Part shown: positions 3,176 through 51,376 of the stretch, piece by piece
How positions within the stretch are numbered: the first letter of the stretch is position 1
Layout of the letters: the number at the start of each line of letters is the position of its first letter
From: a virus
Reading direction: 5' to 3' (one strand)
DNA: 64,000 bases
Virus record (IMG/VR): IMGVR_UViG_3300024262_003767
Notes under the pieces: generated by a model
Databases searched by the model: none
What the model was told of the DNA's origin: nothing
The model's input: the letters and a program-made list of their open reading frames with translations, nothing else
Made by a program: the position numbers and the translations under genes

Positions 3176-3222
3176 ATCTATTTTTATTTTTATATATAAA
3201 AATGTTATGGTAATGTTATATT

Positions 3223-3671: not shown

Positions 3672-3689
3672 ATTATGATTTATTTATTT

Positions 3690-4088
3690 TTAGTAATAAT
3701 TTATATAATTTACAATTGGTAAAAATAAATTTTTAGGGAAATTTTTCCAATCAAACCATCCAATTTCTGTACATTTTTCAGGTTCCATAATTTTGGCATC
3801 ATACGATTTAGATTGACACCTTACAAAAATTGTAATATAATGCAAATCCTCTTCAATAAACATATCATTAGTAAATCTATCAACTTGTAAATTGATGATA
3901 TCTAGTCCTGTTTCTTCTTTTGCTTCTCTGATTGCACAATCTACAATTGTTTCAAATTTGTCTAATTTTCCACCAGGGAAACTCCAGGTTCCTTCGCTGT
4001 GAGCACCTTTTCTTTTCATTAGAAGAACTTTACCATCGTAATCTTCTATTATAACACCTACGCCTATGTGTGGTCTATTACATTTCAT
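3690..4088 (-). CDS. NUDIX hydrolase
   Basis: Nudix box GKLDKFETIVDCAIREAKEETGL fits Gx5Ex7REUxEExGU. Confidence 0.85.
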   Translation of the reverse strand: MKCNRPHIGVGVIIEDYDGKVLLMKRKGAHSEGTWSFPGGKLDKFETIVDCAIREAKEETGLDIINLQVDRFTNDMFIEEDLHYITIFVRCQSKSYDAKIMEPEKCTEIGWFDWKNFPKNLFLPIVNYINYY

Positions 4089-4437
4089 TTTCTATTTTAT
4101 TTAATTTGGTTTTTCTTATATCTTTTTCTAATTTTTTCTTTAATCTATCAAAATCTGATATTTCAAAGAAATACTCAAATGCATTTTCATATGTTTCTTT
4201 TGTGATATAATATGTCTCTCCGTCTTTGGTATATGTTCGGGGTGGTAGTATTTTAAAAAAGTATGTAGTATCACGATTAAATCCAGAACTTCTTTCTAAT
4301 CTGATTATATCACCACTATATAAAAAAGTAAACATTCCTCTATCTACATATTTAGTATTGGTATTTTCATCGGGTATATCATATCCTTTCTGAACCCCAA
4401 TATCAATCAATCCTAATATAAATTCATCATTCATCAT
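4078..4437 (-). CDS. hypothetical protein
   Basis: 119-aa ORF; start/stop overlap with neighbours suggests an operon. Confidence 0.5.
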   Translation of the reverse strand: MMNDEFILGLIDIGVQKGYDIPDENTNTKYVDRGMFTFLYSGDIIRLERSSGFNRDTTYFFKILPPRTYTKDGETYYITKETYENAFEYFFEISDFDRLKKKLEKDIRKTKLNKIENEM

Positions 4438-4705
4438 TTATTTGCTCTAATTTCTTTTTTCTCAAATTTTTTCTCAAATGTTCTTTATATCTATCAGATT
4501 TTAATAAGAAGTTTTTTATTTCATTTTGTGTTGATTTTAAACCACAAGTAATAGATCCACTTGAGTATGTTAGCCAACCATTATGAAAAAAAAGATATTG
4601 ACCTCTATTAATAATTATACATTCTCCTAGTAAACCACTATCTTTTTTCAAAACATATATATCCTCGGGTATATCAAAAAAATCTATTGCTTCTAATAAA
4701 GTCAT
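4427..4705 (-). CDS. hypothetical protein
   Basis: 92-aa ORF in co-oriented block. Confidence 0.5.
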   Translation of the reverse strand: MTLLEAIDFFDIPEDIYVLKKDSGLLGECIIINRGQYLFFHNGWLTYSSGSITCGLKSTQNEIKNFLLKSDRYKEHLRKNLRKKKLEQINDE

Positions 4706-5215
4706 TTAAATGTTATTTTGTCTAATTATTTCTTCGAAAATAGTTGATTTTAAATCTTCATACAAATCTTCAAGTGAATTATTAATTTTCTGAGATGTTC
4801 GTATCACTCTTGTTTGTATTATTACATCATCTTTTCTTTCATATTCTGGATCTATACCAACCACTAATCTCATTGCTGTAGGTAAATATTTGCCATATTC
4901 AAATAATGTAATAGGATTTAGTGAACCTTTAGAAAACCAAAAAAGTATAATATTTGATTCTTTTAATTTATTATGTTCCCAAATGATTTGTTCTTTTAAT
5001 TTATTTCTTGATATTTTCTTTGACATTTTCTTCCGTCTCGGATTAAAAATGTCCGTGTGTTCAAACATATTTTTAGTTTGTGGATATTTTTCAGACTTTA
5101 TCTTTTCAATTATTTCATTTTGCCAATTTGGACAATTTGAAATTCCACCTGCTAAAAATAATTTAATTTTATTCAGGCTTTTAAGTTTACTCGGGGCTTC
5201 TAATATTTTTAACAT
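4706..5215 (-). CDS. nucleoside 2-deoxyribosyltransferase / DNPH1(Rcl)-like protein (tentative)
   Basis: KLFLAGGI...W near N-terminus and ILFWFSKGSLNPITLFEYGKYLPTAMRLVVGIDPE resemble the YLAG.. and FEhGyA motifs of the NDT/Rcl family. Confidence 0.4.
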   Translation of the reverse strand: MLKILEAPSKLKSLNKIKLFLAGGISNCPNWQNEIIEKIKSEKYPQTKNMFEHTDIFNPRRKKMSKKISRNKLKEQIIWEHNKLKESNIILFWFSKGSLNPITLFEYGKYLPTAMRLVVGIDPEYERKDDVIIQTRVIRTSQKINNSLEDLYEDLKSTIFEEIIRQNNI

Positions 5216-5216
5216 T

Positions 5217-5651
5217 TTAATAGTCTGTTATTAATTTTCCAATTAGATGATCATATTCGTGTTGAATTATACGTGCCATAACACCTTCAAATTCTTGTTG
5301 TTTATACTCCCATGCTCTATTGTGATATTGTATTCTAACTCTACCTTTTCGTGTGACAGTTATTGGTATATCAGGCACACTCAAACAACCTTCAGTCATT
5401 TGTTCTGAATGACCAAATGCGTATATTTTAGGATTTATATATGTTTCCTCAAAACCTTCATATGAAACAATAAATAGGTTTAAATTTTTACTAACTTGTG
5501 GTGCTGCTAATCCAACCCCAGTTGATGATCTCAAAGTTTCAAACATATCCGATATTAACTTTTTAGAATGTTCATTATTTATAACATCTATGTTTGGTTT
5601 TCTTAATATACCTCTTGGATCTTGATTATATTTTATTACATCTAATATCAT
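5217..5651 (-). CDS. def: peptide deformylase
   Basis: All three PDF motifs present: GVGLAAPQV, EGCLS, QHEYDHL (HExxH). Confidence 0.9.
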   Translation of the reverse strand: MILDVIKYNQDPRGILRKPNIDVINNEHSKKLISDMFETLRSSTGVGLAAPQVSKNLNLFIVSYEGFEETYINPKIYAFGHSEQMTEGCLSVPDIPITVTRKGRVRIQYHNRAWEYKQQEFEGVMARIIQHEYDHLIGKLITDY

Positions 5652-5657
5652 TATTTG

Positions 5658-6491
5658 TTATATAATTTTTAATTTTTTAAGTTTATCTTTATCATAAACT
5701 TCTATTTTTTTGTCTCTATATTGTTTTTTAAAAGCAAGATATTTATCTTTTGCATCATCTCTCCACCAGCCTTTAACTTCAACATATAAATCACAATCAA
5801 TAAGGTAAAAATCTGGTCTATATGTTCCTTCAGCATTATTATAATTGATAGGAAATGCTTCTGGTTCAAAGAACCATTCTATGTTATTTTTATCCAAATA
5901 AGTTGCATATTTTATTTCCCAAGAACTTCTCATCCACACAGAATCACCATTTTTACATTTATACCATTCACCTTTACCATGATAACATTTACCATAAAAA
6001 TTAGATTCCTTACCTCTTTTTACATTTTTACTTTTATTGATTAGCATTTTTTGATATCTTATGTTTGCTTCTATTTCGCCATATTTTTCTAACCAAACAC
6101 TAAATACTGAACGACCATACATTGGATTTTTATCACCAGACATTTTGACACTTATCTTTTTTTTAGTTTTGTCTGAATGATAATTACCTATGTTAGATTG
6201 ACTTATTTTTTTCTTTACCTCGTCTGTTCTATGCTTACCTTTAAAATGATGTGTATTATTTTTGTGCCATTCGATAAGTTTTTCAATCTTAACATCTTTA
6301 TTTGTATTCGCATTCACTTTATTAGAACACGATAAGCATAGATCATTTTTAACTGCATATCTATATTTTTTTTCTACTTCAGCATCACAATCTTTACATT
6401 TCCAAATTACAGTCTTTTCGCTACTTGGTTTCAAATCATTTGAATAATACCCAAACATATCCTTTGTTTTTTGTTCTAAAATAATACCCAT
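5658..6491 (-). CDS. homing-endonuclease-like protein with NUMOD3-type repeats and C-terminal PD-(D/E)xK nuclease-like domain
   Basis: NUMOD3-like repeats (HSDKTKKKIS, GDKNPMYGRS), N-terminal Cys pairs CKDCD..CLSC; C-terminal RPDFYLIDCDLYVEVKGWW = PD...EVK. Confidence 0.55.
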   Translation of the reverse strand: MGIILEQKTKDMFGYYSNDLKPSSEKTVIWKCKDCDAEVEKKYRYAVKNDLCLSCSNKVNANTNKDVKIEKLIEWHKNNTHHFKGKHRTDEVKKKISQSNIGNYHSDKTKKKISVKMSGDKNPMYGRSVFSVWLEKYGEIEANIRYQKMLINKSKNVKRGKESNFYGKCYHGKGEWYKCKNGDSVWMRSSWEIKYATYLDKNNIEWFFEPEAFPINYNNAEGTYRPDFYLIDCDLYVEVKGWWRDDAKDKYLAFKKQYRDKKIEVYDKDKLKKLKII

Positions 6492-6554
6492 AACATTTAT
6501 ATATTTTTCGATTATATATAAATATATACCAGTTGTATTTGTACCAAAAACAAA

Positions 6555-7016
6555 TTATATTATATATTTCCAAAATTCTTCAGGTAAATGAATATTTGTT
6601 AAAAACAAAACATTTTTAAATAATGGTGCAATGTCTGATGCTGCATAACCTGCTAACCCGCAACCTATTGGAGTAACTAAAAATATTTGTTCCTTATGTT
6701 TACAAGCATATTCAATAAAATTACCAACATACTTTTGGATTTCGATTACTGATAATGTTTTAATATTTTTATCTTTTGTTGGTATTGCATATGTTTGACC
6801 CTGAATTCCTTCACCTTGACCATAAATTGCGCCCCATTTAATTGCTTGTTTTGCTGCCCCTTTACCATGTCTTCCCGATTTGTTAGATCCAAAAATAAAC
6901 ACTTCATTGTCTTTTAATTTAGTAATTTTTTCTGGTGTTACTCTTTTTTCTTTATTAATATATTTACTATCACTAAAGTAAGAACCTCTCATTGCTTCTG
7001 ATCTTCCATCTGACAT
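6555..7016 (-). CDS. macro-domain-like protein (tentative; possible ADP-ribose-1''-phosphate processing)
   Basis: VFIFGSNKSGRHGKGAAKQAI and FLVTPIGCGLAGY resemble macro-domain glycine-rich motifs (vvNAAN..GGGVagAI / aFPaIstGiyG); weak, by eye only. Confidence 0.35.
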   Translation of the reverse strand: MSDGRSEAMRGSYFSDSKYINKEKRVTPEKITKLKDNEVFIFGSNKSGRHGKGAAKQAIKWGAIYGQGEGIQGQTYAIPTKDKNIKTLSVIEIQKYVGNFIEYACKHKEQIFLVTPIGCGLAGYAASDIAPLFKNVLFLTNIHLPEEFWKYII

Positions 7017-7136
7017 TGTTTTAATTGTTTTAATTTTAATTTTCTTAAATAACTATTTAATCCTTTTTCATTATTTACAAAATGTGATAACCCCATATTT
7101 TATATAATGTATTTTACTTTTTGTGATTTGTTTAAA

Positions 7137-7164
7137 TAAAAAAAGGGCTACAATAGCCCTTTTT
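7137..7164 (-). terminator. rho-independent terminator overlapping the stop of ORF 7148..7390
   Basis: hairpin gggctacaatagccc flanked by A-run and T-run; the minus-strand transcript reads hairpin then TTTTTTT. Confidence 0.6.
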
Positions 7165-7390
7165 CAATCCATTTTCCATTAATTTTAACTTTATCAAGTT
7201 TTGTTAATGTAAATCTCCATTTTTCAGGAAAATCTAATAATCTTAGATTCATTTGTGTTACCATTTTATGAGCAGTTTTATACTCATTTTGATTAGTGTT
7301 CACCTCTATCAATTGATAAGGTGCGTGATACCCATTACGGTGTATCAGATCAACTCTCCAAAGTTGACATCTTTCGCTTGTGTTTGCCAT
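7148..7390 (-). CDS. hypothetical protein
   Basis: 80-aa ORF followed by terminator. Confidence 0.45.
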   Translation of the reverse strand: MANTSERCQLWRVDLIHRNGYHAPYQLIEVNTNQNEYKTAHKMVTQMNLRLLDFPEKWRFTLTKLDKVKINGKWIEKGLL

Positions 7391-7446
7391 AATCTGAACT
7401 AGTCAGACTACGATGTATTAAAATACCTCATACAACTATATATTAT

Positions 7447-7818
7447 TTATTCTGTGTGAAGTTTTCTTATTTTTGATTTTTTATTTAGTTCATCAAGTTT
7501 CATCTTTCTCAACGCCAAATTACCTAAAAATCGTTTAACAGTGGTCCAAACCATGGTGCCTTTATCACCTTGTATTTTTATTTTACCTGGTTTTTTATCT
7601 AAAACTTTATATACCTTACCAACTGTAAAAGATTGTATCTTTTCTGCTGTTCCATTTTTAGAAAATCTTGGATCAAATGATAAATCTCTATCATCAAAAC
7701 ACAATATAGTATCACCTATATTACAATCTCCATGTTTCAACAACATTCTATCAAGTTCTATTTGTTTTTGGTAGAAATGTAAATTATAAAATTTTTTTGA
7801 ACGTAATTTATTTATCAT
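7447..7818 (-). CDS. hypothetical protein
   Basis: 123-aa ORF. Confidence 0.45.
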   Translation of the reverse strand: MINKLRSKKFYNLHFYQKQIELDRMLLKHGDCNIGDTILCFDDRDLSFDPRFSKNGTAEKIQSFTVGKVYKVLDKKPGKIKIQGDKGTMVWTTVKRFLGNLALRKMKLDELNKKSKIRKLHTE

Positions 7819-7838
7819 ATAATGATATATGATAAACT

Positions 7839-8660
7839 TTAAGAAATGTTTTCAAGTTTTAATGCTCTGATTTGTTTTTTAGAAAAAATATTAGTTTTTG
7901 ACTTCTTTATTAAATGTGAAAATATTTTATTTTGTATTAATTTTTTCTTTACGGAAAAATCCGCATTTACTATTTTTTCTTCAAATTCAATTAAACATTC
8001 AGGCTCACGACCATCACCTAAATAAACTTTATCTCCTACTGTGTGAAACCAAAACCATTCTATTTTAATGTCATTTTCTTTAAACAATTTATCTACTTCT
8101 GAACTTAAATAATAATAAAAATATGTTAATAATTCAGTTAAAAATTCAGTTTCAGAAAATCCATCATTACTATTTAAATAATAATACCAAAAATTACTAG
8201 GTTCAACACCTAACTCAAGACAAAGATTATCAATTTTATCAATATTTTTGTTGGTTTTATTAAAAACATAGTCATTAAACAAACTTTTAAATGATTTAGT
8301 ATCTCCATTACCTTTATCACAATTACATTTTGAACACATTGTCTGATAATTGGTAGAAGTGTTTTTACCACCTTTAGATTTTGGTATGATGTGATCTTTC
8401 GTCATTAAAATTTCATCACCGTTTTCATTTACACCATACATATTGATGTGATATTTTTCAATTTCGGGTAAATGCTTCTCAATTGCTAAAAAAATTCCTT
8501 CAAGTCCACATTCAACACAGAATCTATTTTCTTGAAATAATTTGTATCGTTGTGAGGTTATCTTAACAGTAACCCCGTTAATTGTTCGGTATCTATTTGG
8601 TCCTACACTATCCTTTAGTTTTTTTAAATAACTTATATCTAATTTACTATGTCTTATCAT
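7839..8660 (-). mobile_element. HNH homing endonuclease
   Basis: HNH motif TKDHIIPKSKGGKNTSTNYQTMCSKCNCDKGN; Cys pairs CVECG; sits between conserved genes, typical of a free-standing HEG. Confidence 0.75.
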
Positions 8661-8675
8661 CTTTTTATTTAAAAA

Positions 8676-9188
8676 TTATTTCAGGTAAATAGGATCAACG
8701 TGATCAACTAACCATACACCATTTTCTGATTGATAAAATTTAATTTTATCAACAATCATTGGATAAGTATCAATTTTGAAGATATATGGAGTATCATTTT
8801 TACAATATCTATTTGCAACATCTAAAGCAGTATCATAATCAGCACTTAGATGTACATGATTTCTTTTCATTTTAGAAAGTCCATTTTTTCTAATTGATTT
8901 AACATTTCTAGATGCTGTGCCGTGATATAAAAATTTTGGTGGCATCTTTGATTTCAATTCAACATCAACTTTTAAAGAATGTCCTTGATTTGCTCTAATT
9001 TTAGTTTCATCTTCATTAAAACTAAATCTTTTCTTATCATTATTATCTACAATCCATTGTAAATCTTCAAATGATATATTAACTTTATTCAATAAATCAT
9101 CAACATCAACCCAACCATTTTTATCCATAGACAAATCTTCTGGGTTATGTCTTAATAAATAACTTATTTGTATTCCTTTATTTTTCAT
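8676..9188 (-). CDS. kptA: RNA 2'-phosphotransferase KptA/Tpt1
   Basis: Near-collinear with E. coli KptA: LLRHNPEDL, NGWVDVDDLL, RFSF, NQGHS, PPKFLYHGTASR, HVHLSAD, ENGVWL. Confidence 0.9.
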   Translation of the reverse strand: MKNKGIQISYLLRHNPEDLSMDKNGWVDVDDLLNKVNISFEDLQWIVDNNDKKRFSFNEDETKIRANQGHSLKVDVELKSKMPPKFLYHGTASRNVKSIRKNGLSKMKRNHVHLSADYDTALDVANRYCKNDTPYIFKIDTYPMIVDKIKFYQSENGVWLVDHVDPIYLK

Positions 9189-9227
9189 TTATTCCTTTAT
9201 TTTTCATCTATTTTATCTAATTACTCA

Positions 9228-9689
9228 TTATAATTGATTAAGTTTTAATTTTCTATTTTCTTTAATGAAAGAATTGTTGATTTTATTCCATAATTGTTCT
9301 TCTGAAAGTAGTTTTTGTATTTTATCATCAGAACAATACTCACATAAATATTTTTGTTTGATTAATCCCAAACAGACAGGACAATCTATGTCGCCATATT
9401 TACAGCCGTGGTTAATACAACAATGAGTTTCATGTACACCATATTTTTCCTTGGGTATTGTCGTTTTACCTTTTTTTACAGCTATCTCTTTTTCTTTTTG
9501 TTTTCGTTCAAACTCAGTTGTACTTTTGATATCTTCTAAAATATCATCACAAGTGAATTTGGAAAATTGATCTGATAATTTTTCATCCAAACCTTCAGTT
9601 CTCATTTTTTTAATAAAATCCGAAAATTCTTTCCTTTGCTCTTCATTTAAAGCAAATATTAAACTTGATATATCACTAAACATCTTCAT
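9228..9689 (-). CDS. Cys-rich hypothetical protein (putative Zn-binding)
   Basis: Cluster THCCINHGCKYGDIDCPVCLGLIKQKYLCEYC. Confidence 0.5.
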   Translation of the reverse strand: MKMFSDISSLIFALNEEQRKEFSDFIKKMRTEGLDEKLSDQFSKFTCDDILEDIKSTTEFERKQKEKEIAVKKGKTTIPKEKYGVHETHCCINHGCKYGDIDCPVCLGLIKQKYLCEYCSDDKIQKLLSEEQLWNKINNSFIKENRKLKLNQL

Positions 9690-9915
9690 CTTTCAACTTA
9701 TTATAAATTTCAAAATCAACACTACCATCTTCATTAATGTATTGTTCGTAAGTAAACTCACAACATGCTCTAATATGCATCATTGAAAATCCTTTTCGGT
9801 GACACATACACATACAAATATTTTCTTTTTTCTTTTCCATACGGCAAATATAAACAAAAATATGTAAATAAAAAATGTTCACTAAATAGAAAATGTGTTC
9901 GTTTTTGATGCACAT
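9676..9915 (-). CDS. small Cys-rich hypothetical protein (likely starts at internal Met MEKKKEN)
   Basis: CMCMCH...ACC motif; weak. Confidence 0.3.
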   Translation of the reverse strand: MCIKNEHIFYLVNIFYLHIFVYICRMEKKKENICMCMCHRKGFSMMHIRACCEFTYEQYINEDGSVDFEIYNKLKDEDV

Positions 9916-10019
9916 TTTTAATTCATTATTATCACATTATTATATAATATAATGCTAATTAAGTACTTAGTATTTTTGGCACACTTTATGAGATAGTAAT
10001 AAAAAACAATATAGAAATT

Positions 10020-10265
10020 ATGAAAAATTACTTTAAACAAAGATTAAAAAGAGACAAACAAAATAAGATGATTGCTGGCGTTTGTTCAGGAATCGCAAAT
10101 TATTTTGATGTAGATCCAGTATTAGTAAGATCGGTATTTCTCGTTGGATTATTAATGCCGATTAATGGTTTTCCATTGATATATATTGTATTATGGATTT
10201 TAACACCATACGAAGAAGTTGAAGTTAAACATTATAGTAATGAAAAATATTCAGATGAAAAATAA
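10020..10265 (+). CDS. PspC-domain membrane protein
   Basis: LKRDKQNKMIAGVCSGIANYFDVDPVLVRSVFLVGLL...LIYIVLWILTP matches the PspC domain consensus (R...iaGVCgGlA.Y...dp..vR..f). Confidence 0.7.
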   Translation: MKNYFKQRLKRDKQNKMIAGVCSGIANYFDVDPVLVRSVFLVGLLMPINGFPLIYIVLWILTPYEEVEVKHYSNEKYSDEK

Positions 10266-10275
10266 AATTAATAAA

Positions 10276-10515
10276 ATGAAAACAATGAAAACTATGCTAA
10301 TAATTTTAGCAATCCTAATGTTAGGAACAACACTTGGAACATCAACACCAAAAGTAAATGAATCTATTTTTGATTTTCCTGAAGAAGAATATATTGATGA
10401 TATTCCTTTTGATACAGATAAGGTAATTAACCAGGACACTTTTAAAATGGAAGAAGAAGGTTATATTGATGATATTCCATTTAATACAGAAAAAGTTGTA
10501 GAAGAATTATCATAA
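10276..10515 (+). CDS. small secreted protein with tandem acidic repeats
   Basis: Signal-like MKTMKTMLIILAILMLGTTLG; tandem repeat EEEYIDDIPFDTDKV / EEGYIDDIPFNTEKV; start moved to an internal Met after the PspC stop (track ORF begins 10219). Confidence 0.5.
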   Translation: MKTMKTMLIILAILMLGTTLGTSTPKVNESIFDFPEEEYIDDIPFDTDKVINQDTFKMEEEGYIDDIPFNTEKVVEELS

Positions 10516-11070
10516 TTCCTCTACAACTATATTTGTCTTATTGTGTTCGTGATCTGAATAAATATATTTACTTCCAAATAATGGCACTTCTTTCAAATTA
10601 TCTTTTACATACTTACCCCCCATTCCTTTCTTAACATAAGCAATTGTCATGTGTGCATGATAATCTGGATGATTATTTGTGTATTCAAATCTAAAGCACA
10701 TAGTCTTATTAAGTTCTCTTAACTTATCTGAGTGAATATCAAATTTAACAACATCATATTCATCTTGTTCAAATATTGTTATATCACCTCTCATAATATC
10801 ATCTATATCTTCCAATTTAGGTAAATATGTTTTGATATCTTTTGCTATACCATCATAGTGATGAAATCCATATAAAATTGTACAATGTGCCTCATCTTCA
10901 TATCCATAATCATTTGTATCATCATCATCTTGTGATGTGTAAATATCTTCTTCTGGTATCATTCTTCTAATAAATTCGATCCAATTACTAAAAGAAAAAT
11001 ATAACATCAGACAACCTAATTTTGGTTTATCATCTTCCATATAGTTATCAAATTTTAGTATTTCAGCCAT
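10510..11070 (-). CDS. 2H phosphoesterase (LigT/CPDase-like, 2',3'-cyclic phosphodiesterase family)
   Basis: Two H-x-T-x motifs HCTILYG and HMTIAYV; start placed at Met MAEILKFDNY (11070) because the track start at 11160 would overlap the divergent gene 11121. Confidence 0.75.
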   Translation of the reverse strand: MAEILKFDNYMEDDKPKLGCLMLYFSFSNWIEFIRRMIPEEDIYTSQDDDDTNDYGYEDEAHCTILYGFHHYDGIAKDIKTYLPKLEDIDDIMRGDITIFEQDEYDVVKFDIHSDKLRELNKTMCFRFEYTNNHPDYHAHMTIAYVKKGMGGKYVKDNLKEVPLFGSKYIYSDHEHNKTNIVVEEL

Positions 11071-11120
11071 AATTTTAATGCTTTTTCTTTTATATATAAA
11101 TAAAAATATTTTTTGTTTAA

Positions 11121-11684
11121 ATGACTGAAAATTTAATAATTGTTGATGTACAACCAACATATAACAAATTTATAGATTTTGATATTGGTGAATTTGTTAG
11201 TTGGATAAATAACTCATCTTTTGATGAGGTTTTTTGTTTATATAATGGTCCTGAATTAGGTTATGAAGATGATGAATGGAGAATATCAAATTGGTATTAT
11301 GATTGGGGATTAGATAGGGATATAAGTTTTAGATTTTTTGAAAAATCTTATGGTTGGTTTCGTGATTTTATGGAAGATATGGATGATGATAATATAATTT
11401 CTATTGGTAAATATATGATAGAACACGACATATGGGATTCGAGATATTTTAAAAAGAAAGATATAAAAATTTTAAAAGATAGAGGAATAAGTACAAGGTA
11501 TTTAGGTAAAGAAAGTAGAGTAATGTATATACCTGAATTAAAAGATTACTTATCAAATAATATATATACTAACGAAGAAATTATTATTTGTGGTGGTGGT
11601 GTCGATGAATGTTACAAAGAAGTTAATATGTTATTGGAAATGATGGGATATAAATTTAAAGAAAAAATAAAATTTGTCTATTAA
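11121..11684 (+). CDS. hypothetical protein
   Basis: 187-aa ORF with upstream TATATATAAATAAAAAT motif; TAATG overlap with next gene. Confidence 0.55.
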   Translation: MTENLIIVDVQPTYNKFIDFDIGEFVSWINNSSFDEVFCLYNGPELGYEDDEWRISNWYYDWGLDRDISFRFFEKSYGWFRDFMEDMDDDNIISIGKYMIEHDIWDSRYFKKKDIKILKDRGISTRYLGKESRVMYIPELKDYLSNNIYTNEEIIICGGGVDECYKEVNMLLEMMGYKFKEKIKFVY

Positions 11685-24113: not shown

Positions 24114-24923
24114 TTATTTGATATTTACAACATAAAATGCTTTCTTCTTATGAAGAACATCAATGAAAGTGATGCTAGTGTTGTCACCTTTATATGGTTT
24201 TAAAGTGTGAACATCACCACAAGGATTATGTCCAACTATCTGATGATATCCAACTATTGGTTTATTTGCCAATTCTTTATCTAACCATAGTGGTCCACCT
24301 ACTTTACAATGTCCACCTCTACGATGACCAACATCAAACATACATTCCATTCTATGAGTAAATGCCAAATTCAATTTATCTGCAAGGTTGTTGATTGTAT
24401 AATCAATTTCCATTCTTTTTAGAAATTCTTCTACTTTATAGAATTCTTTATCAAATCTAGTATTGTACCAACCTTTGTGTACGCCTGCGTGAGTGAATAG
24501 ATAATTTTCAACTTGAAATGCCATTTGAAACAACTCAAAGTTTTTATTAAATAGTTCATATAAATCAAATCGCATTTCTGGACGATAACCACTACATTCA
24601 TATTTATTGCTATGAATCCAAGGTGAAGTTAATGCGTAATGTAATTCGTGATTACCCCACAACAGAATAACATTCCGTGGATAAAGTGTTTTGAATTTAA
24701 TTAAATCAATTATATTTTCTCGTATCTGATTGTTATCTTTATCAAAAGCATCACAGTAGTCACCAAGAAAAACATAATAATCATAATCCATATCAACAAT
24801 ATCATATATCTGGTTGCCTTCTTCCATTTGAAGAAGGTAACTGATATCGGCAAAAGTTTTCCAAACATTTCTACCGTGCAAATCTCCTATGACCATTATT
24901 TTTTTCATAATGCAAAGATACAA
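24114..24923 (-). CDS. PPP-family metallophosphoesterase (Ser/Thr phosphatase / ApaH-like)
   Basis: GDLHG, GDYCDAFD (GDxxDRG-like), GNHE motifs in canonical order. Confidence 0.8.
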   Translation of the reverse strand: MYLCIMKKIMVIGDLHGRNVWKTFADISYLLQMEEGNQIYDIVDMDYDYYVFLGDYCDAFDKDNNQIRENIIDLIKFKTLYPRNVILLWGNHELHYALTSPWIHSNKYECSGYRPEMRFDLYELFNKNFELFQMAFQVENYLFTHAGVHKGWYNTRFDKEFYKVEEFLKRMEIDYTINNLADKLNLAFTHRMECMFDVGHRRGGHCKVGGPLWLDKELANKPIVGYHQIVGHNPCGDVHTLKPYKGDNTSITFIDVLHKKKAFYVVNIK

Positions 24924-27352: not shown

Positions 27353-28216
27353 TTAATTTAATTCACCTTCCCAAACAATTTTATATTCATATTTACCTGG
27401 TAGTAGTATAATTTCTCTTTGATTTGTATGGTAATATTGTGTTGGTAATTTCTGTACGTCAACTAGTACATCTTTAGGTTGTACTTCCATCATAATAACA
27501 AAAGGTGGTGATGATGGTTGTTCATCCACAAATCTTCTAGCCACTAATATATTTGTAGTCCAAGATGTCGACATATTGAAATCGGATATAACTTTTTCAC
27601 CAACTTTGTATGGTGGGGTTTTTTTTGAAAAATGTTTTATTTGAACTTCTTCAATACCTTTATAAATCTTTAAAGGTTTATCTGGTTTAAAAGGTTTTAA
27701 TTCGTCTATAATATCTTGTGTTAATTTTGATAATAACAAAGAGCCAGAACCTATATATGAATATAACCAATCATCAGTTTTTTCAGATAATTCAACATTT
27801 ATCCTTTCAGGTGTATGTTTATCATATTTAGTAAATCCTCCAATGTAACGAAAAGATATCACATCTCCATTTTTAATTCTTGCTAACCATTCACCTGTTA
27901 TTGAATGTTTATAAAAATAACCAGAATAATCATCAACATCAACTTCTTCATCTTCACTAAATCCAAAAAAATCTACAATTTGTTTATATAGAGGTTTTTT
28001 TGTTTTAATTTGATAGATATATTCACTATTTATATCAGATGCGTCTGCTCTATTTGTTAAATAGATTCTTTTTAAATGATTTAGATTACTAAAATCTATA
28101 TCTTCTAATTTTAATGGTTCATCAGAATATAAATATAAATTTCCATTATATGTTTTTTGATCGTAATCTACTTCATTATAATCTACAAGTTCAAATAATT
28201 TGAATTTAGTTATCAT
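27353..28216 (-). CDS. hypothetical protein
   Basis: 287-aa ORF overlapping the start of the cca gene. Confidence 0.55.
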   Translation of the reverse strand: MITKFKLFELVDYNEVDYDQKTYNGNLYLYSDEPLKLEDIDFSNLNHLKRIYLTNRADASDINSEYIYQIKTKKPLYKQIVDFFGFSEDEEVDVDDYSGYFYKHSITGEWLARIKNGDVISFRYIGGFTKYDKHTPERINVELSEKTDDWLYSYIGSGSLLLSKLTQDIIDELKPFKPDKPLKIYKGIEEVQIKHFSKKTPPYKVGEKVISDFNMSTSWTTNILVARRFVDEQPSSPPFVIMMEVQPKDVLVDVQKLPTQYYHTNQREIILLPGKYEYKIVWEGELN

Positions 28217-29465
28217 TCATAAGATATTCATTTTTGAAACGCACAATCTCTCGTCTTTTCTTTTCTATTTCAATTTCAATTCCTTTGAAACCTTCAGCAG
28301 CTAAATCATTACCATTAACCACAAATCCATCATTACAATAATCAACAAATGGTTTATAGAATTCTTCACCCAAAAACTCATAAATTAAATCATCATCAAT
28401 ATGATATTGATTTTTCATTTTAGCCAAACCGTAAACATTTGAAACGTCAATGTTTTTAAATGATTTCCAATGTAAATCTAATTCCTTCTCAAGTTTGAGC
28501 AAAAATTCAATCTGGTTCACTAACTTGGAACTAAATTTCAATTCACTAATCATATATTTTCTCAATTTACGAATATCATTATCACGAAGTAAATGTGCAA
28601 ATAATATTGCGGAAATAGGTTTTGGTGTAAATCCATCGGGAGATATTTTCAATTTGGGAAACATTTGTTCCCACATATCATATTCAGTTAATAGTCTGAT
28701 ATAATTTTCTAATATTTTGTTTCCGCCTTTTTCTGCGTGTTCAATTACCTTATTCCATTCTTCATGTATTCTTTCTTGTGATACATCTTCTTTGGTACTT
28801 ATACCACGTAGTCTGTTATCACTTTTAATGGCTCTTGATGTCTCAGGTGATATGATACCACCTTTTCTACCTTGGGCTCTTGCAGCGAATCTAAATACTC
28901 TTAAAATTCTTAATCTATCTTCTTTAAATCTCTCAGCAGGATCACCAACAGCACGTATAACATTATTTTCAATATCTTTAACTCCACCAACCAAATCTAC
29001 AATTTCTTTTTTATTTATATCATAGAAAAGAGCATTGATAGTTAAATCTCTACGTTTAACATCATCTTCGATTGTAATATGGTTTCCAATTTCTACTTTA
29101 TCATCATCACCTTTTGTATCTCTACCTCCAGAAATATCTTTTCTAAAAGTTGCTAATTCGTGTCCGAGTGGTTCATCTTCAGTATAAATTCTAAGTACGC
29201 CAAAATTTTTACCTTGTTCATCAGAAACATTCCAACCTTTCAAAATTCTTTTACTTTCTTCTGGTAGAGCATTTGTGACTAAATCAAAATCATGTGGTAT
29301 CTTTTTTTGCAAAAAATCACGAACCGCTCCACCAACAACATAGATATCTTTACCAGCATTATTGAAGGCTCTTGATATTTCTTTAATGTCATAAGGAATA
29401 GGCATCTCAACAGAGATAGTATTTTCAGTTATAAATTCTAAATATTTTTTTAATTTTTCTACCAT
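28206..29465 (-). CDS. cca: tRNA nucleotidyltransferase (CCA-adding enzyme) / poly(A) polymerase family
   Basis: Head-domain motifs YVVGGAVRDFLQKKIPHDFDLVT and RRDLTINALFYD. Confidence 0.85.
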   Translation of the reverse strand: MVEKLKKYLEFITENTISVEMPIPYDIKEISRAFNNAGKDIYVVGGAVRDFLQKKIPHDFDLVTNALPEESKRILKGWNVSDEQGKNFGVLRIYTEDEPLGHELATFRKDISGGRDTKGDDDKVEIGNHITIEDDVKRRDLTINALFYDINKKEIVDLVGGVKDIENNVIRAVGDPAERFKEDRLRILRVFRFAARAQGRKGGIISPETSRAIKSDNRLRGISTKEDVSQERIHEEWNKVIEHAEKGGNKILENYIRLLTEYDMWEQMFPKLKISPDGFTPKPISAILFAHLLRDNDIRKLRKYMISELKFSSKLVNQIEFLLKLEKELDLHWKSFKNIDVSNVYGLAKMKNQYHIDDDLIYEFLGEEFYKPFVDYCNDGFVVNGNDLAAEGFKGIEIEIEKKRREIVRFKNEYLMNDN

Positions 29466-49760: not shown

Positions 49761-49777
49761 TCGTTTTTTATTATTTT

Positions 49778-50080
49778 TTAATCTTTCTCAATCGTGAGTG
49801 TTAATCCTTGTTCTTCAAGTGCGGATTTAAAAGGTTTTAATTTATCTTTTGAACCAGTTTTTAAGATACTCGCACCTTTCATATGAACTGTCCAAGCTGT
49901 GTTTTCAGCTTTTTCTGGACTAAAACTCATAATTGATATCAGACATAAAATTACATGATCAAAAGAATTGACTTCATCATTCCATAAAATCAATTTATAG
50001 ACTTTATCATCCGATGGTTCAATACCCGCTTTACTGAGTATTTCTTCTAATGTTTTTGTTATTTCTTTTGTGTCGCTCAT
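49778..50080 (-). CDS. clpS: ATP-dependent Clp protease adaptor ClpS
   Basis: YKLILWNDEVNSFDHVI...AENTAWTVHMKGAS, typical ClpS core. Confidence 0.85.
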   Translation of the reverse strand: MSDTKEITKTLEEILSKAGIEPSDDKVYKLILWNDEVNSFDHVILCLISIMSFSPEKAENTAWTVHMKGASILKTGSKDKLKPFKSALEEQGLTLTIEKD

Positions 50081-51375
50081 ATTCCTAATTCCTCTTTATA
50101 TAGTTTAACAGTATTAAAGTTTCCAGTATATTTTCCTTCACTATCAGACAACTTTACACAATCTCTCCAAACTTTCATTCCTTCAGGTAAGGCTTCAGAC
50201 ATCTTAATTACCATATTTAAAGGTTTTGCCTTTTTTAAAGTTTCCATAAAATAACCACCATTTGGATTTGGTATCGATTCCCAATTAAATTGGTTATGAT
50301 AATCTTCATCATAGATACCATTTTGTGAAACCAAAACAACATCGTTTGATAGCCAAGTACCTATACCATAGGAAGATAATATTTTATTTCTCACACAATT
50401 TTCAATTGTTTTAATTTTTTCTATACTATTTATAGAGTCAGAAAATACAATTGTTTTTGGAATCATACCATTAGGCATTTTAATACCTTTATTTATGTAA
50501 TGTTTGATAGTTTTTTCTGCGAATTCAACAGGTTCACCAGAATCTTGACGAACACCGTCAAATAATTTTGAATAAAATAAATCAAAACCTTCAAAGAAAA
50601 TATCTGTTGTATATGTATCAGAAAGTGCAATTCCTAATGCTCCTTTATAAGCATCTACCCAACGACCCATTCCTACACGATTAGCCATCATCACACCGTA
50701 TTTAGCAGCGTGAAACATAAACCATTCGTGTGCCTGAGTTCCAATTGCTTTAATACCATATTTACGAGCAAACATCACATTGGATGTACCAACGATTGTT
50801 TTTGGTGCAACTTTCAAAAATTCTTCAATAACTCTACCTTGGATAAATTTTGAAAATCTTCTGCGGGTTCCAAATTCAGATAATGAAATTCCAAGTTCAG
50901 ATAATTGTTTAAATTTTTCATCCCAAATTTCCATTGACTTTTCTAAGTCAACTTCTTCACCTGAGAAAAGGAAGAATAATTCTGATATTAAAGCCATTAA
51001 TTGAACTTCCCAAAATATAGTTTTGTGCCAAAAACCTTCAATTTCTATTTCTAATACACCATTTTTTTGAGTAACTTTAACTTCATTAGGATCATATTGA
51101 TAACTCCTAAGATACATATAATAGGAAATATCAAAGAATGGAAGTTTACTTTTCAAATGTTCTTCAATTTCTTTGGTAAATTTTAAATTTTTGAAATGAG
51201 CAATCTGTTCTTTTAACTCGGTAGCAAAACCTTTTGGAAATTTACGGGTTTTATCTCTGAGTATGAACTTATACTTAACCTTAGCGTTAGGATAGTGTTT
51301 TAGTATGGCAAATTGCATGAAATACTTATAGGCGTCCTGATCATCAAATTCGGTAATTATTGGTTTAAATCTCAT
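50077..51375 (-). CDS. pncB: nicotinate phosphoribosyltransferase
   Basis: Collinear with E. coli PncB: DAYKYFMQ, FWEVQLMALISE, FGTRRRFS, GTSN, GTQAHEW. Confidence 0.9.
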   Translation of the reverse strand: MRFKPIITEFDDQDAYKYFMQFAILKHYPNAKVKYKFILRDKTRKFPKGFATELKEQIAHFKNLKFTKEIEEHLKSKLPFFDISYYMYLRSYQYDPNEVKVTQKNGVLEIEIEGFWHKTIFWEVQLMALISELFFLFSGEEVDLEKSMEIWDEKFKQLSELGISLSEFGTRRRFSKFIQGRVIEEFLKVAPKTIVGTSNVMFARKYGIKAIGTQAHEWFMFHAAKYGVMMANRVGMGRWVDAYKGALGIALSDTYTTDIFFEGFDLFYSKLFDGVRQDSGEPVEFAEKTIKHYINKGIKMPNGMIPKTIVFSDSINSIEKIKTIENCVRNKILSSYGIGTWLSNDVVLVSQNGIYDEDYHNQFNWESIPNPNGGYFMETLKKAKPLNMVIKMSEALPEGMKVWRDCVKLSDSEGKYTGNFNTVKLYKEELGI

Positions 51376-51376
51376 A

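What the first reader, a model, noticed from the sequence alone, without database searches (positions are those of the whole stretch)
3690..11070. Clustered KptA/Tpt1 + 2H cyclic phosphodiesterase + macro-like + NUDIX: a complete 2'-phosphate / ADP-ribose-1'',2''-cyclic-phosphate processing chain in a phage
Within about 7 kb lie a bona fide RNA 2'-phosphotransferase (KptA, 8676-9188), a 2H phosphoesterase with two HxTx motifs (10510-11070), a putative macro-domain protein (6555-7016) and a NUDIX hydrolase (3690-4088). From established knowledge of fungal/plant tRNA splicing, this is the exact chain that follows a Trl1-type ligation. Tpt1 moves the junction 2'-phosphate onto NAD+ to give ADP-ribose-1'',2''-cyclic phosphate. 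A 2H CPDase opens it to ADP-ribose-1''-phosphate. A macro-domain phosphatase yields ADP-ribose, and a NUDIX ADP-ribose pyrophosphatase clears it. A CCA-adding enzyme (28206-29465) and HNH/GIY-YIG nucleases lie in the same region. T4-type tRNA repair (Pnkp+Rnl1) leaves no 2'-phosphate, so Tpt1 here implies a different, eukaryote/Trl1-like repair chemistry or another 2'-PO4/NAD-linked RNA modification activity. This could be a counter-defence against host anticodon nucleases. No ligase or polynucleotide kinase could be identified by eye; unassigned ORFs such as 15605-16657, 11121-11684 and 27353-28216 are candidates.
Basis: partly seen in the sequence, partly recalled or inferred. Interest (0 to 1): 0.8.

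Follow-up and report, generated by a model that had tools for sequence, protein, structure and literature searches.

The report
Phage NAD-dependent RNA-end repair genes
A fragment of a very large phage genome carries an RNA 2'-phosphotransferase (KptA) beside a 2H phosphoesterase and a previously unnamed macro-fold protein, which fits an NAD-dependent tRNA repair module that comparative genomics has already predicted for jumbo phages, so it is a good new example and not a new kind of system.

Summary
All four ORFs exist at the stated coordinates. KptA/Tpt1 is unambiguous: Pfam gives 160 bits and the catalytic R-H-R-R tetrad is intact. The 2H protein has two HxT motifs and a confident 2H fold. 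ORF 6555-7016 has no Pfam hit, but its model is clearly a macrodomain of the TARG1/DarG type. The NUDIX protein is real but resembles MutT/NUDT1, not an ADP-ribose pyrophosphatase, and a close relative lacks it at this position.

KptA, 2H and the macro-like gene stay linked in relatives of this phage. The same trio recurs in unrelated phage lineages, sometimes with a classical Macro domain in place of the macro-like one. That supports a functional module.

The 2H subfamily is repeatedly fused to CCA-adding enzymes, which points to tRNA 3'-end healing at least as strongly as to Appr>p opening. The window holds no RNA ligase and no polynucleotide kinase. However, it is only about a tenth of a huge-phage genome, and two relatives place a P-loop kinase by the 2H gene.

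The proposed KptA, 2H, Macro and Nudix chain was already predicted for jumbo phages (Iyer et al. 2021, 2022). Verdict: real, partly supported, and a new member of a known kind.

The parts
8676..9188 (-). KptA/Tpt1 RNA 2'-phosphotransferase (170 aa)
   Evidence: PF01885 at 160.3 bits, E 6.6e-47. phrog_5470 at 1.6e-57. NCBIfam RNA 2'-phosphotransferase at 197.5 bits, below the equivalog cutoff of 239. Best PDB matches are 7kw8 at 1.1e-39 and 6e3a at 5.5e-29. R13, H14, R65 and R109 are invariant in the 5-sequence alignment.
10510..11070 (-). 2H phosphoesterase (186 aa) with two HxT motifs. It forms its own transcription unit.
10494..10528 (-). Terminator-like hairpin with a 16-bp stem at the 3' end of the 2H gene
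   Evidence: It is the strongest of 4 terminator-like sites in 3000-11800. It separates 2H transcription from the KptA operon.
6555..7016 (-). A1S_2505 / N4 gp14-like protein (153 aa) with a macrodomain fold of the TARG1/DarG class
7839..8660 (-). HNH endonuclease fused in frame to a conserved ~149-aa domain of unknown function (about 7851-8297). In a relative, that domain is a separate gene just downstream of KptA.
   Evidence: HNH_5/HNH match residues 86-119. L171:12496-12945 (149 aa, directly after KptA) matches window 8297-7851 at 44% identity, E 2e-34.
3690..4088 (-). NUDIX hydrolase (132 aa), MutT/NUDT1-like. Weakly linked accessory part.
   Evidence: PF00293 at 76.9 bits. Best PDB matches are 4kyx, AtNUDT1 and NUDT15. 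No ADPRase-specific model passes its cutoff. It overlaps upstream ORF 4078-4437 by 11 nt, which indicates an operon. It is absent at this position in L005.
4706..5215 (-). Nucleoside 2-deoxyribosyltransferase-like (DrHyd superfamily) protein in the same operon as the NUDIX gene
   Evidence: PF15891 at 64.3 bits. A homologue lies directly next to a NUDIX gene and 5 kb from KptA in L101.
11121..11684 (+). Conserved 187-aa protein of unknown family, divergently placed next to the 2H gene. Possibly isochorismatase-like.
   Evidence: No Pfam, PHROG or NCBIfam hit. Conserved next to 2H in L169, L170, L171 and L172. A 31%-identical homologue lies beside CCA-adding enzyme and KptA in the unrelated locus L107. 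hhalign against the window's isochorismatase-family protein is not significant, E 0.24.
24114..24923 (-). Calcineurin-like metallophosphoesterase, a candidate phosphate-end healing enzyme
   Evidence: PF00149. In relatives L169, L171 and L173 it lies only 4-6.5 kb from the 2H gene. Its homologues lie within 10 kb of KptA in L105, L109, L122 and L131 (HMM E 7.4e-51).
28206..29465 (-). Class-II tRNA nucleotidyltransferase of the CCA-adding / PcnB family
   Evidence: TIGR01942 at 162.5 bits and NF009814 at 141.7 bits, both below cutoff. Homologous to the CCA domains fused to the 2H subfamily.
50077..52078 (-). NAD salvage pair: nicotinate phosphoribosyltransferase (50077-51375) and an isochorismatase/nicotinamidase-family protein (51377-52078)
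   Evidence: NAPRTase plus NAPRTase_N at 155.6 and 110.7 bits. Isochorismatase at 35 bits. These could recycle the nicotinamide released by KptA (inference).

Best explanation
This is an NAD-dependent RNA (most likely tRNA) end-repair module of a huge phage. It is built around KptA, with the 2H phosphoesterase and the macro-fold protein as partners.

Proposed sequence of events:
1. A host metal-independent RNase cuts tRNA and leaves a 2',3'-cyclic phosphate.
2. The 2H enzyme opens it to a 2'-phosphate with a free 3'-OH.
3. The end is sealed or extended, by a ligase encoded elsewhere or by the CCA-adding enzyme.
4. [quoted passage not shown]
5. The 2H enzyme and/or the macro-fold protein process that by-product. 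The macro-fold protein may instead remove stray ADP-ribose-phosphate adducts from RNA ends.
6. The PncA/PncB pair recycles nicotinamide.

Shown here: the family or fold of each protein, the intact catalytic residues, and conserved and recurrent gene linkage. Inferred: every substrate, the order of the steps, and the part played by the NUDIX protein, which I regard as only loosely attached.
For: - KptA is catalytically intact.
- KptA and 2H lie 0.75-1.4 kb apart in the window and in relatives L169 and L171, whose 2H proteins are 80% and 64% identical. KptA and the macro-like gene are linked in L005 and L169.
- Among 52 non-redundant IMG/VR KptA loci, the same 2H subfamily lies 1.5-3.2 kb downstream in 5.
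- A classical Macro domain lies 0.3-0.7 kb upstream in 3 of those loci, and an A1S_2505-type macro lies 2.4-4.5 kb away in 4 others. Two unrelated macro types therefore fill the same neighbourhood.
- A macro gene of either type occurs in 7 of 52 KptA loci versus 0 of 65 control loci (p = 0.0027). NADAR occurs in 6 of 52 versus 0 of 65 (p = 0.0065).
- Other recurrent KptA neighbours are tRNA-end enzymes and NAD salvage genes: Thg1 in 6 loci, RlaP in 4, CCA-adding enzyme adjacent in 2 (L107, L111) and 5.4 kb away in a third, NAMPT in 4, plus NMNAT-Nudix.
- The 2H subfamily is fused to CCA-adding enzymes in six different architectures and lies 2.2 kb from one in four more loci.
- Relatives L171 and L173 carry a P-loop kinase (AAA_33 at 28.7 bits) 3 kb from, or directly upstream of, the 2H gene.
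- The window also encodes a CCA-adding enzyme, a metallophosphoesterase and PncA/PncB.
- The model agrees with published predictions.
Against: - There is no RNA ligase, RtcB or polynucleotide kinase in 64 kb.
- 2H is transcribed separately from KptA. Two opposite-strand ORFs and a strong terminator lie between them.
- Unrelated genes interrupt the cluster: peptide deformylase, PspC-like, and homing nucleases.
- In the 80 pattern-selected 2H loci, none has KptA or a macro gene within 10 kb. Most of the 438 phage records carrying the A1S_2505 protein are N4-like podophages of about 60-90 kb, and none belongs to an organism group that dominates the KptA-positive records. Neither partner therefore depends on KptA.
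- Macro, 2H and Nudix genes occur in 56%, about a third and 45% of jumbo phages respectively. Some co-location is therefore expected.
- The fold does not separate an RNA>p or Appr>p esterase from an Acb1-type nuclease.
- No biochemistry exists for any of these proteins.
Confidence: 0.5

Rival explanations
1. Coincidental auxiliary or anti-defence island. The four genes act independently:
- the 2H protein as an Acb1-like nuclease that destroys cyclic-oligonucleotide immune signals;
- the macro-fold protein as an eraser of host-imposed ADP-ribosylation (DarT- or CmdT-type), or a degrader of ADP-ribose-derived signals;
- the NUDIX protein as a nucleotide sanitiser or decapping enzyme;
- KptA alone in RNA repair.
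For: - Some subfamily members sit inside injected polyvalent proteins or next to baseplate genes.
- The A1S_2505 family is in 438 phage records, mostly N4-like podophages.
- None of the 80 2H loci has KptA or a macro gene nearby.
- Iyer et al. argue that phage Macro, NADAR and Nudix domains mainly counter ADP-ribose-derived signals.
- TARG1-like macrodomains remove thymidine-linked and phosphate-linked ADP-ribose.
Against: - The Acb1 score is below the gathering cutoff and no higher than in the CCA-fused members.
- KptA-2H and KptA-macro linkage recurs in unrelated lineages, with two different macro types.
- Fusion to CCA-adding enzymes is hard to explain for a cyclic-oligonucleotide nuclease.
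Confidence: 0.25
2. Ligase-independent tRNA 3'-end rebuilding:
1. The 2H enzyme opens a 2',3'-cyclic phosphate on a truncated tRNA 3' end to a 2'-phosphate with a 3'-OH.
2. The CCA-adding enzyme extends from the 3'-OH. This turns the terminal 2'-phosphate into an internal one.
3. KptA removes that internal 2'-phosphate. No RNA ligase or kinase is needed.
For: - 2H and CCA-adding enzyme are fused in both domain orders, or adjacent, in 10 of 65 loci.
- A CCA-adding enzyme lies directly beside KptA in L107 and L111.
- There is no ligase or kinase in the window, and an Rnl1-type ligase lies near KptA in only 1 of 52 lineages.
- The nearest characterised homologue, Runella Tpt1, acts on internal but not terminal 2'-phosphates. 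That fits removal after extension.
Against: - It is not known whether a CCA-adding enzyme accepts a 2'-phosphorylated primer.
- In the window the CCA gene is 17 kb from 2H and 19 kb from KptA.
- The window covers only about a tenth of a huge-phage genome, so a ligase may lie elsewhere.
- A P-loop kinase next to 2H in L171 and L173 suggests 5'-end healing, and therefore ligation.
Confidence: 0.15
3. A writer and eraser pair for nucleic-acid ADP-ribosylation. KptA caps 5'-phosphorylated RNA or DNA ends with ADP-ribose, to protect phage transcripts or disable host RNA. The TARG1-like macro-fold protein removes the mark.
For: - Tpt1/KptA enzymes ADP-ribosylate 5'-phosphate ends, and TARG1-type macrodomains reverse this (PMC11833690).
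- The macro-fold protein aligns with TARG1, including its catalytic lysine.
- KptA-macro linkage recurs.
Against: - The physiological relevance of phosphate-end ADP-ribosylation is unclear even in the source paper.
- It does not explain the recurrent 2H, Thg1, RlaP and CCA neighbours.
Confidence: 0.1

Closest known systems
Predicted KptA-2H-Macro (NADAR, Nudix) RNA-repair systems of jumbo phages (Iyer, Anantharaman, Krishnan, Burroughs, Aravind 2021, PMC7824862; Iyer, Burroughs, Anantharaman, Aravind 2022, PMC9503650)
   Same: The cast and logic match. KptA removes 2'-phosphates left after 2H opening of cyclic ends. [quoted passage not shown] The setting is large phages that also carry NAD salvage, CCA-adding enzyme, Thg1 and RlaP.
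   Different: - The macro partner here is the A1S_2505/N4 gp14-like family, which Pfam does not recognise as a macro domain.
- The 2H subfamily is the one fused to CCA-adding enzymes.
- No ligase is in view.
- The published systems are also computational predictions, not experiments.
Fungal/plant tRNA splicing pathway: Trl1/AtRNL, Tpt1, Cpd1, Poa1, Ysa1 (established knowledge; Tpt1 chemistry in PMC6573784)
   Different: No Trl1-type ligase or kinase is found. The proteins are stand-alone and are not orthologous to Cpd1, Poa1 or Ysa1. The NUDIX protein is not of the Ysa1/ADPRase type.
Phage T4 Pnkp + Rnl1 tRNA repair
   Same: The presumed purpose is the same: reversing host tRNA cleavage.
   Different: T4 Pnkp removes the cyclic phosphate completely, so no 2'-phosphate and no Tpt1 are needed. 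T4 Rnl1, Rnl2 and Pnkp seeds found nothing in the window.
Acb1 anti-CBASS 2H nuclease (PF23474; PDB 7t27, 9q2g)
   Same: It has the 2H fold and the 'Y-x-x-H-x-T-[IL]-A-Y' second motif. It also has the highest sequence identity among solved structures, 19%.
   Different: The score is below the Pfam cutoff, 23.6 versus 27. Context with KptA, a P-loop kinase and CCA-adding enzymes points to RNA ends.
TARG1/OARD1 and DarG macrodomains
   Different: There is no detectable Pfam Macro match. TARG1 Asp125 is replaced by Ala. There is no DarT partner.

Membership tests
Tpt1/KptA RNA 2'-phosphotransferase (PF01885) | Profile match above the curated threshold over the full domain | tested here: met
   160.3 bits against a cutoff of 26, covering residues 7-162. 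NCBIfam equivalog models score 197.5 bits against 239, which is below their stricter cutoff.
Tpt1/KptA RNA 2'-phosphotransferase (PF01885) | Catalytic Arg-His-Arg-Arg tetrad | tested here: met
   R13, H14, R65 and R109 are invariant in alignment A3. They align with LRH, RANQGHS and RHHVHLS of Runella Tpt1.
Tpt1/KptA RNA 2'-phosphotransferase (PF01885) | NAD+-dependent removal of an RNA 2'-phosphate | not testable with these tools
   This needs an enzyme assay.
2H phosphoesterase superfamily | Two H-x-T/S motifs on a duplicated fold | tested here: met
Acb1 anti-CBASS nuclease (PF23474) | Profile match above the gathering score | tested here: not met
   23.6 bits against 27. phmmer against PDB Acb1 gives E 0.4.
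LigT/ThpR RNA 2',3'-cyclic phosphodiesterase (TIGR02258, PF13563) | Profile match above the cutoff | tested here: not met
   TIGR02258 scores 15.2 against 65.7. PF13563 scores 22.2 against 27. Subfamily members do pass PF13563, for example L004 at 32.5 and L015 at 45.8.
Appr>p cyclic phosphodiesterase (Cpd1 / A. thaliana CPDase) | Specific relationship beyond the shared 2H fold | tested here: inconclusive
Macro domain | Pfam Macro (PF01661 or PF14519) profile match | tested here: not met
   No Pfam hit at E 0.1.
Macro domain | Macrodomain three-layer fold | tested here: met
Macro domain | TARG1-class catalytic lysine and the glycine-rich diphosphate loop | tested here: inconclusive
   hhalign gives E 2.9e-4 but only 41% probability. 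K81 aligns with K84 and IGCGL is shared, but the residue matching TARG1 D125 is Ala.
NUDIX ADP-ribose pyrophosphatase subfamily | Nudix box GX5EX7REUXEEXGU | tested here: met
   G39-L62 is read directly from the sequence. PF00293 scores 76.9 bits.
NUDIX ADP-ribose pyrophosphatase subfamily | ADPRase-specific signature: a proline about 16 residues after the box (recalled from Dunn et al. 1999), or a match to an ADPRase model | tested here: not met
   Position 78 is Ile, and there is no Pro in 63-80. TIGR00052 scores 15.9 against 79.55 and NudE scores 18.3 against 169. Apart from the structural-genomics entry 4kyx, which is labelled ADP-ribose pyrophosphatase MutT, the nearest PDB entries are NUDT1 and NUDT15.
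Trl1-type heal-and-seal tRNA repair pathway | ATP-dependent RNA ligase with a KxDG motif | tested here: not met
   No ligase Pfam family appears in any ORF of 183 aa or more. No KxDG...EG...KxK pattern is present. T4 Rnl1, Rnl2 and DNA ligase seeds give no window hit. This covers the 64 kb window only.
Trl1-type heal-and-seal tRNA repair pathway | 5'-OH polynucleotide kinase | tested here: not met
   The window has none. Relatives L171 and L173 have a P-loop kinase (GPPGSGKS...INRD, AAA_33 at 28.7 bits) near the 2H gene.

The most novel reading that the evidence does not exclude
The phage repairs tRNA 3' ends without any ligase. The 2H enzyme converts a cyclic phosphate on a clipped tRNA to a 2'-phosphate with a 3'-OH. 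The CCA-adding enzyme rebuilds the end from the 3'-OH and so buries the 2'-phosphate inside the chain. KptA then removes it with NAD+, and the macro-fold protein clears the ADP-ribose by-product. This would give bacterial and phage Tpt1 enzymes, whose role outside fungal-type splicing is still called obscure, a natural substrate that does not depend on a Trl1-type ligase.
Probability: 0.15. Interest if true: 0.8.

Novelty: new member of a known kind. Interest (0 to 1): 0.4.

Why it matters
The role of Tpt1/KptA in organisms without a fungal-type tRNA ligase is still described as obscure (PMC6573784). The phage version of the pathway exists only as a comparative-genomics prediction.

This locus and its relatives offer a compact, testable set:
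- one KptA close to the well-studied Runella enzyme;
- one 2H enzyme from a subfamily that is repeatedly fused to CCA-adding enzymes;
- one macro-fold protein from a very common phage family (N4 gp14-like, more than 2,800 database relatives) that has no Pfam assignment.

Two results would be useful:
- Showing what the 2H enzyme cuts: RNA>p, Appr>p or cyclic oligonucleotides.
- Showing what the macro-fold protein removes: Appr1p phosphate, or phosphate- or base-linked ADP-ribose.

These would assign functions to two large phage protein families. They would also show whether huge phages spend NAD+ on tRNA repair.

Tried and rejected
- Megablast of 25 kb against phage records found nothing.
- No tRNA genes were found.
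- An exact look-up of the KptA protein found nothing.
- The 100%-identical 2H protein is on record on a 70 kb contig, but only a 1.45 kb contig could be read.
- An exact DNA search found nothing in IMG/VR. In metagenomes it found only an 8.9 kb copy of the same region. The rest of the genome could therefore not be scanned for a ligase.
- Annotated neighbourhoods of KptA in phiCD211 and an Erwinia jumbo phage were uninformative.
They have no significant Pfam, PHROG or NCBIfam family, no KxDG motif and no P-loop. The two queried against PDB sequences (15605-16657 and 27353-28216) had no relative. I reject them as ligase or kinase on present evidence.
- The 387-aa ORF after 2H in L173, and the 347-aa ORF with a KMDGEN motif directly upstream of KptA in L101, also have no PDB or Pfam match.
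- The idea that 11121-11684 is a nicotinamidase-like hydrolase was not confirmed (hhalign E 0.24).
- The sigma-70 promoter scan was at chance level, 77 sites against 75.8 expected.
- Fold comparison could not decide between an RNA>p esterase, an Appr>p esterase and Acb1 for the 2H protein.

Full report
**Observation.** The window is AT-rich (about 26% G+C) and densely coded. An independent metagenome contig reproduces 5228-14153 at 99.87% identity, so the arrangement is not an assembly accident.

**What genome this is.**
- There is no close DNA match in the phage collection, and there are no tRNA genes.
- The window carries several cell-like genes: a hybrid histidine kinase, a Clp-family double AAA+ ATPase (ClpB/ClpC-like) with ClpS, peptide deformylase, thymidine kinase, an SPFH protein, two epimerases and PncA/PncB.
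- It also carries SbcCD-like genes split by a homing nuclease, plus HNH, GIY-YIG and NUMOD3 nucleases.
- The 614-aa ORF 42206-44050 matches only complete 'uncultured phage' genomes of 460-735 kb (LR756500-LR756504, LR745206), at up to 41% identity over 91% of its length. The 2H and macro-like proteins hit records from the same series.
- The window is therefore a fragment, roughly a tenth, of a huge-phage genome. 'In a phage' holds. It also follows that genes missing from the window may lie elsewhere in the genome.

**KptA (8676-9188).**
- PF01885 scores 160 bits, E 6.6e-47. phrog_5470 scores 1.6e-57.
- The best solved relatives are 7kw8 at 1.1e-39, which I recall to be Runella slithyformis Tpt1, and Clostridium thermocellum Tpt1 at 5.5e-29.
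- R13, H14, R65 and R109 correspond to the catalytic tetrad and are invariant.
- KptA in phages is not rare. It is in 97 GenBank phage records and at least 191 IMG/VR stretches.

**2H protein (10510-11070).**
- H62-x-T64 and H140-x-T142 are conserved in 41-42 homologues.
- Pfam scores for Acb1 (23.6) and 2_5_RNA_ligase2 (22.2) are both under the cutoff of 27.
- The superfamily is certain. The substrate class cannot be read from sequence or fold.

**Macro-like protein (6555-7016).**
- Pfam finds nothing. NCBIfam calls it 'A1S_2505 family phage non-structural protein' (144 bits).
- The family is large: more than 2,860 relatives and 438 phage records, mostly N4-like podophages, where it is the gp14-like early protein. 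A few depositors have labelled it OARD1 or an ADP-ribosyl hydrolase.
- A profile-sequence alignment to human TARG1 gives E 2.9e-4. I checked that the TARG1 sequence I used is identical to PDB 2lgr. The alignment places K81 on the catalytic K84 and IGCGL on IGCGL, while TARG1 Asp125 is Ala here.
The class (TARG1, DarG, Poa1) includes both an Appr1p phosphatase and erasers of nucleic-acid ADP-ribosylation.

**NUDIX (3690-4088).**
- The Nudix box is intact.
- No ADP-ribose pyrophosphatase model comes near its cutoff (TIGR00052 15.9 against 79.55; NudE 18.3 against 169).
- The proline that marks ADPRases about 16 residues after the box is absent (the signature is recalled from the literature).
- The nearest solved proteins are a Rickettsia structural-genomics entry and then AtNUDT1 and NUDT15, which are nucleotide sanitisers.
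- It lies in a tightly overlapping operon with two small unknown ORFs, a nucleoside 2-deoxyribosyltransferase-like (DrHyd) protein and peptide deformylase.
- In the closest relative, L005, the order is KptA, HNH, two small ORFs, macro-like, PDF, one small ORF, GH16. The whole DrHyd-to-NUDIX segment is missing there.
- A NUDIX gene directly adjacent to a DrHyd homologue does recur 5 kb from KptA in the unrelated locus L101. A link is possible but weak.

**Conservation in the lineage.**
- L169 (2H 80% identical) reads Metallophos ... 340 aa, 187 aa, 2H, 83 aa, PspC, KptA, HNH-fusion ... macro-like.
- L171 (64%) reads Metallophos ... P-loop kinase ... 187 aa, 2H, three ORFs, KptA, 149 aa.
- L173 (58%) has a P-loop kinase immediately upstream of 2H and a 387-aa unknown ORF immediately downstream.
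- The kinase has GPPGSGKS followed by INRD, as in T4 Pnk by my reading. It passes Pfam AAA_33 at 28.7 bits, and mammalian PNKP is among its weak PDB hits. It is absent from the window.
- The C-terminal half of the window's 'HNH' ORF (about 7851-8297) is homologous to the free-standing 149-aa gene that follows KptA in L171. A homing nuclease has therefore fused to a conserved KptA neighbour of unknown function.

**Independent lineages.** I fetched 80 IMG/VR loci centred on KptA and reduced them to 52 lineages at 90% KptA identity. Within 10 kb of KptA I found the following.

| Neighbour | KptA loci (of 52) | Position or note |
|---|---|---|
| Same 2H subfamily | 5 | 1.5-3.2 kb downstream, same strand |
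| Classical Macro domain (PF01661) | 3 | 0.3-0.7 kb upstream |
| A1S_2505-type macro | 4 | 2.4-4.5 kb away |
| NADAR | 6 | |
| NUDIX | 11 | includes NMNAT-Nudix fusions |
| Thg1 | 6 | |
| RlaP | 4 | |
| CCA-adding enzyme | 3 | adjacent to KptA in 2, 5.4 kb away in 1 |
| NAMPT | 4 | |
| R2K ATP-grasp | 5 | |
| Metallophosphoesterase | 6 | within 1.5 kb |
| YqeY-like (inferred from the L004 member) | 9 | |

I used 65 non-redundant 2H-centred loci from similar large phages as a control. A macro gene of either type occurs in 7 of 52 KptA loci versus 0 of 65 controls (Fisher p = 0.0027). NADAR occurs in 6 of 52 versus 0 of 65 (p = 0.0065). Two unrelated macro families fill the same neighbourhood, which argues for function and against shared descent.

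**The 2H subfamily's own context.**
- Of the 80 IMG/VR loci found with the subfamily pattern, none has KptA, macro or NADAR within 10 kb. The search pattern excluded the HATIAY variant that the KptA-linked members carry.
- Ten of the 65 non-redundant loci couple 2H to a CCA-adding enzyme.
- Six have them in one polypeptide, in either order: L022 is 2H-CCA, L055/56 has 2H then CCA inside a 2,417-aa protein, and L012, L014, L034 and L049 have CCA then 2H.
- These long proteins are polyvalent. Some also carry ART-PolyVal, SAM-lyase and a weak second tRNA_lig_CPD-like region.
- Four more loci have a CCA gene 2.2 kb upstream of a nucleotidyltransferase-2H fusion.
- These fused forms are among the closest IMG/VR relatives of the window's 2H protein.
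- Repeated independent fusion to a tRNA 3'-end enzyme is the strongest functional clue for this protein. It points to RNA 3'-end healing.
- Other members lie beside baseplate genes.

**Ligase and kinase.**
- Nearly every window ORF of 183 aa or more was scanned against Pfam, and no ligase or kinase family appeared. The exceptions are 44691-45284, which was not scanned, and the CCA/PcnB gene, which was scanned against NCBIfam only.
- No curated ORF has a KxDG...EG...KxK pattern. The only P-loops are in the Clp and SbcC proteins.
- T4 Rnl1, Rnl2, DNA ligase and Pnkp, taken from NC_000866, recover homologues in some fetched loci but none in the window.
- Near KptA, an Rnl1-type ligase occurs in only one lineage (L099/L100). 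DNA-ligase-like enzymes occur in the Clostridioides prophage group, L106 and L148.

**Mechanism.** The most economical reading is an NAD-dependent RNA-end repair module.
1. The 2H enzyme opens 2',3'-cyclic phosphate ends to a 2'-phosphate with a 3'-OH. ThpR and the Trl1 CPDase domain do this; that is established knowledge.
2. The end is sealed, or extended by the CCA-adding enzyme.
3. KptA transfers the 2'-phosphate to NAD+.
4. [quoted passage not shown]
5. The nicotinamide released can re-enter NAD synthesis through the PncA-like and PncB genes at 50077-52078.

All substrate assignments are inferred. The transcription layout argues against a single operon: 2H ends in a strong 16-bp hairpin and is separated from KptA by two opposite-strand ORFs.

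One detail bears on the ligase-free variant. The nearest characterised homologue, Runella Tpt1, removes internal but not terminal 2'-phosphates, whereas C. thermocellum Tpt1 removes both. If the phage enzyme behaves like Runella Tpt1, a terminal 2'-phosphate would have to become internal first. Extension by a CCA-adding enzyme would do that as well as ligation would.

**Rivals.**
- The genes may be independent members of an auxiliary or anti-defence island. Macro, 2H and Nudix genes occur in 56%, about a third and 45% of jumbo phages. The A1S_2505 family is mostly found in N4-like phages of about 60-90 kb, none from an organism group that dominates the KptA-positive records. The 2H protein's best Pfam score is to Acb1.
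- Alternatively, KptA and the TARG1-like protein may write and erase 5'-phosphate ADP-ribosylation.

**Comparison with what is known.** Iyer et al. [quoted passage not shown] Iyer et al. 2022 repeat this, add NADAR and Nudix (including a KptA-Nudix fusion in Bodo saltans virus), and tie it to phage NAD salvage. Three details appear unreported in the papers I read:
- the macro fold of the A1S_2505/N4 gp14 family, for which a literature search on the family name found only unrelated Acinetobacter papers;
- the repeated 2H-CCA fusions, which the polyvalent-protein paper never mentions, since it does not contain the term CCA-adding;
- the P-loop kinase beside 2H in relatives of this phage.

No experiment on any phage KptA system turned up in my searches.

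**Scores.** Interest is 0.4. The finding is a real, well-conserved and testable locus in a huge phage, with some new family-level detail, but the concept is already in the literature and the NUDIX step is not supported.

Noticed in passing
L022:9695-11758; L012:6755-10876; L014:5261-10882; L034:6434-10834; L049:3171-7604; L055:4913-12166: Single polypeptides of 687-2,417 aa in IMG/VR phage contigs fuse the same 2H subfamily to a CCA-adding enzyme, in both domain orders. Some also carry ART-PolyVal, SAM-lyase and a weak fungal tRNA-ligase-CPD-like region. They look like injected polyvalent proteins with tRNA 3'-end repair capacity.
   Followed up: partly
window 7839-8660: The HNH endonuclease ORF is an in-frame fusion. 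Its C-terminal ~149 aa are homologous to a free-standing gene that directly follows KptA in relative L171 (12496-12945). The fused form also occurs in L169 and L005. The function of this conserved KptA neighbour is unknown.
   Followed up: partly
window 11121-11684: This 187-aa protein has no family assignment. It is always divergently adjacent to the 2H gene in the lineage, and it lies beside CCA-adding enzyme and KptA in the unrelated locus L107. Its N-terminal 'IIVDVQP' and C-terminal 'CGGGVDEC' resemble isochorismatase/nicotinamidase motifs, but the profile comparison was not significant.
   Followed up: partly
L173:9233-9967 and L171:6345-7103: A P-loop kinase (GPPGSGKS...INRD, AAA_33) lies immediately upstream of, or 3 kb from, the 2H gene in relatives of this phage. 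It is absent from the window. In L173 a 387-aa ORF with no detectable family follows the 2H gene.
   Followed up: partly
window 50077-52078 and 46956-50080: A nicotinamidase-like gene and a nicotinate phosphoribosyltransferase sit next to each other (Preiss-Handler entry to NAD salvage). They lie beside ClpS and an 838-aa Clp-family double AAA+ ATPase (ClpB/ClpC-like). This NAD salvage route differs from the NAMPT/NMNAT route seen in other KptA phages.
   Followed up: no
window 31774-33954: A 726-aa hybrid sensor histidine kinase (PAS, HisKA, HATPase_c, receiver) is encoded in a phage genome fragment.
   Followed up: no
window 17501-18367: A 288-aa protein matches only the catalytic core of class II aminoacyl-tRNA synthetases (tRNA-synt_2). 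It may be a truncated synthetase paralogue such as EpmA or AsnA.
   Followed up: no
window 38390-39280, 45492-46370, 13768-14487: There are two weak radical-SAM proteins, both below the Pfam cutoff, and a strong DUF2400 protein (255 bits). DUF2400 lies next to the kinase-2H pair in L173.
   Followed up: no
window 58112-62848: The window has a 1,055-aa SbcC/Rad50-like ORF and an SbcD/Mre11-like ORF. A homing-endonuclease-like ORF (61267-62148, DUF7487/NUMOD3) lies between them. Related DUF7487 ORFs are at 1422-2321.
   Followed up: no
L004:7672-16455 (also L003, L115, L136): A compact phage cluster reads NADAR, Macro (PF01661), KptA, metallophosphoesterase, 2H, YqeY, PRPP-synthetase-like. In L115, L117, L135 and L136, NMNAT-Nudix and NAMPT are nearby, and Thg1 as well in L115, L135 and L136. 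It is a fuller version of the module than the one in the window.
   Followed up: partly
L006:2809-9387: A relative carrying the macro-like gene encodes a 2,192-aa multi-glycosyltransferase/methyltransferase protein, flanked by IS605 OrfB/TnpB elements.
   Followed up: no
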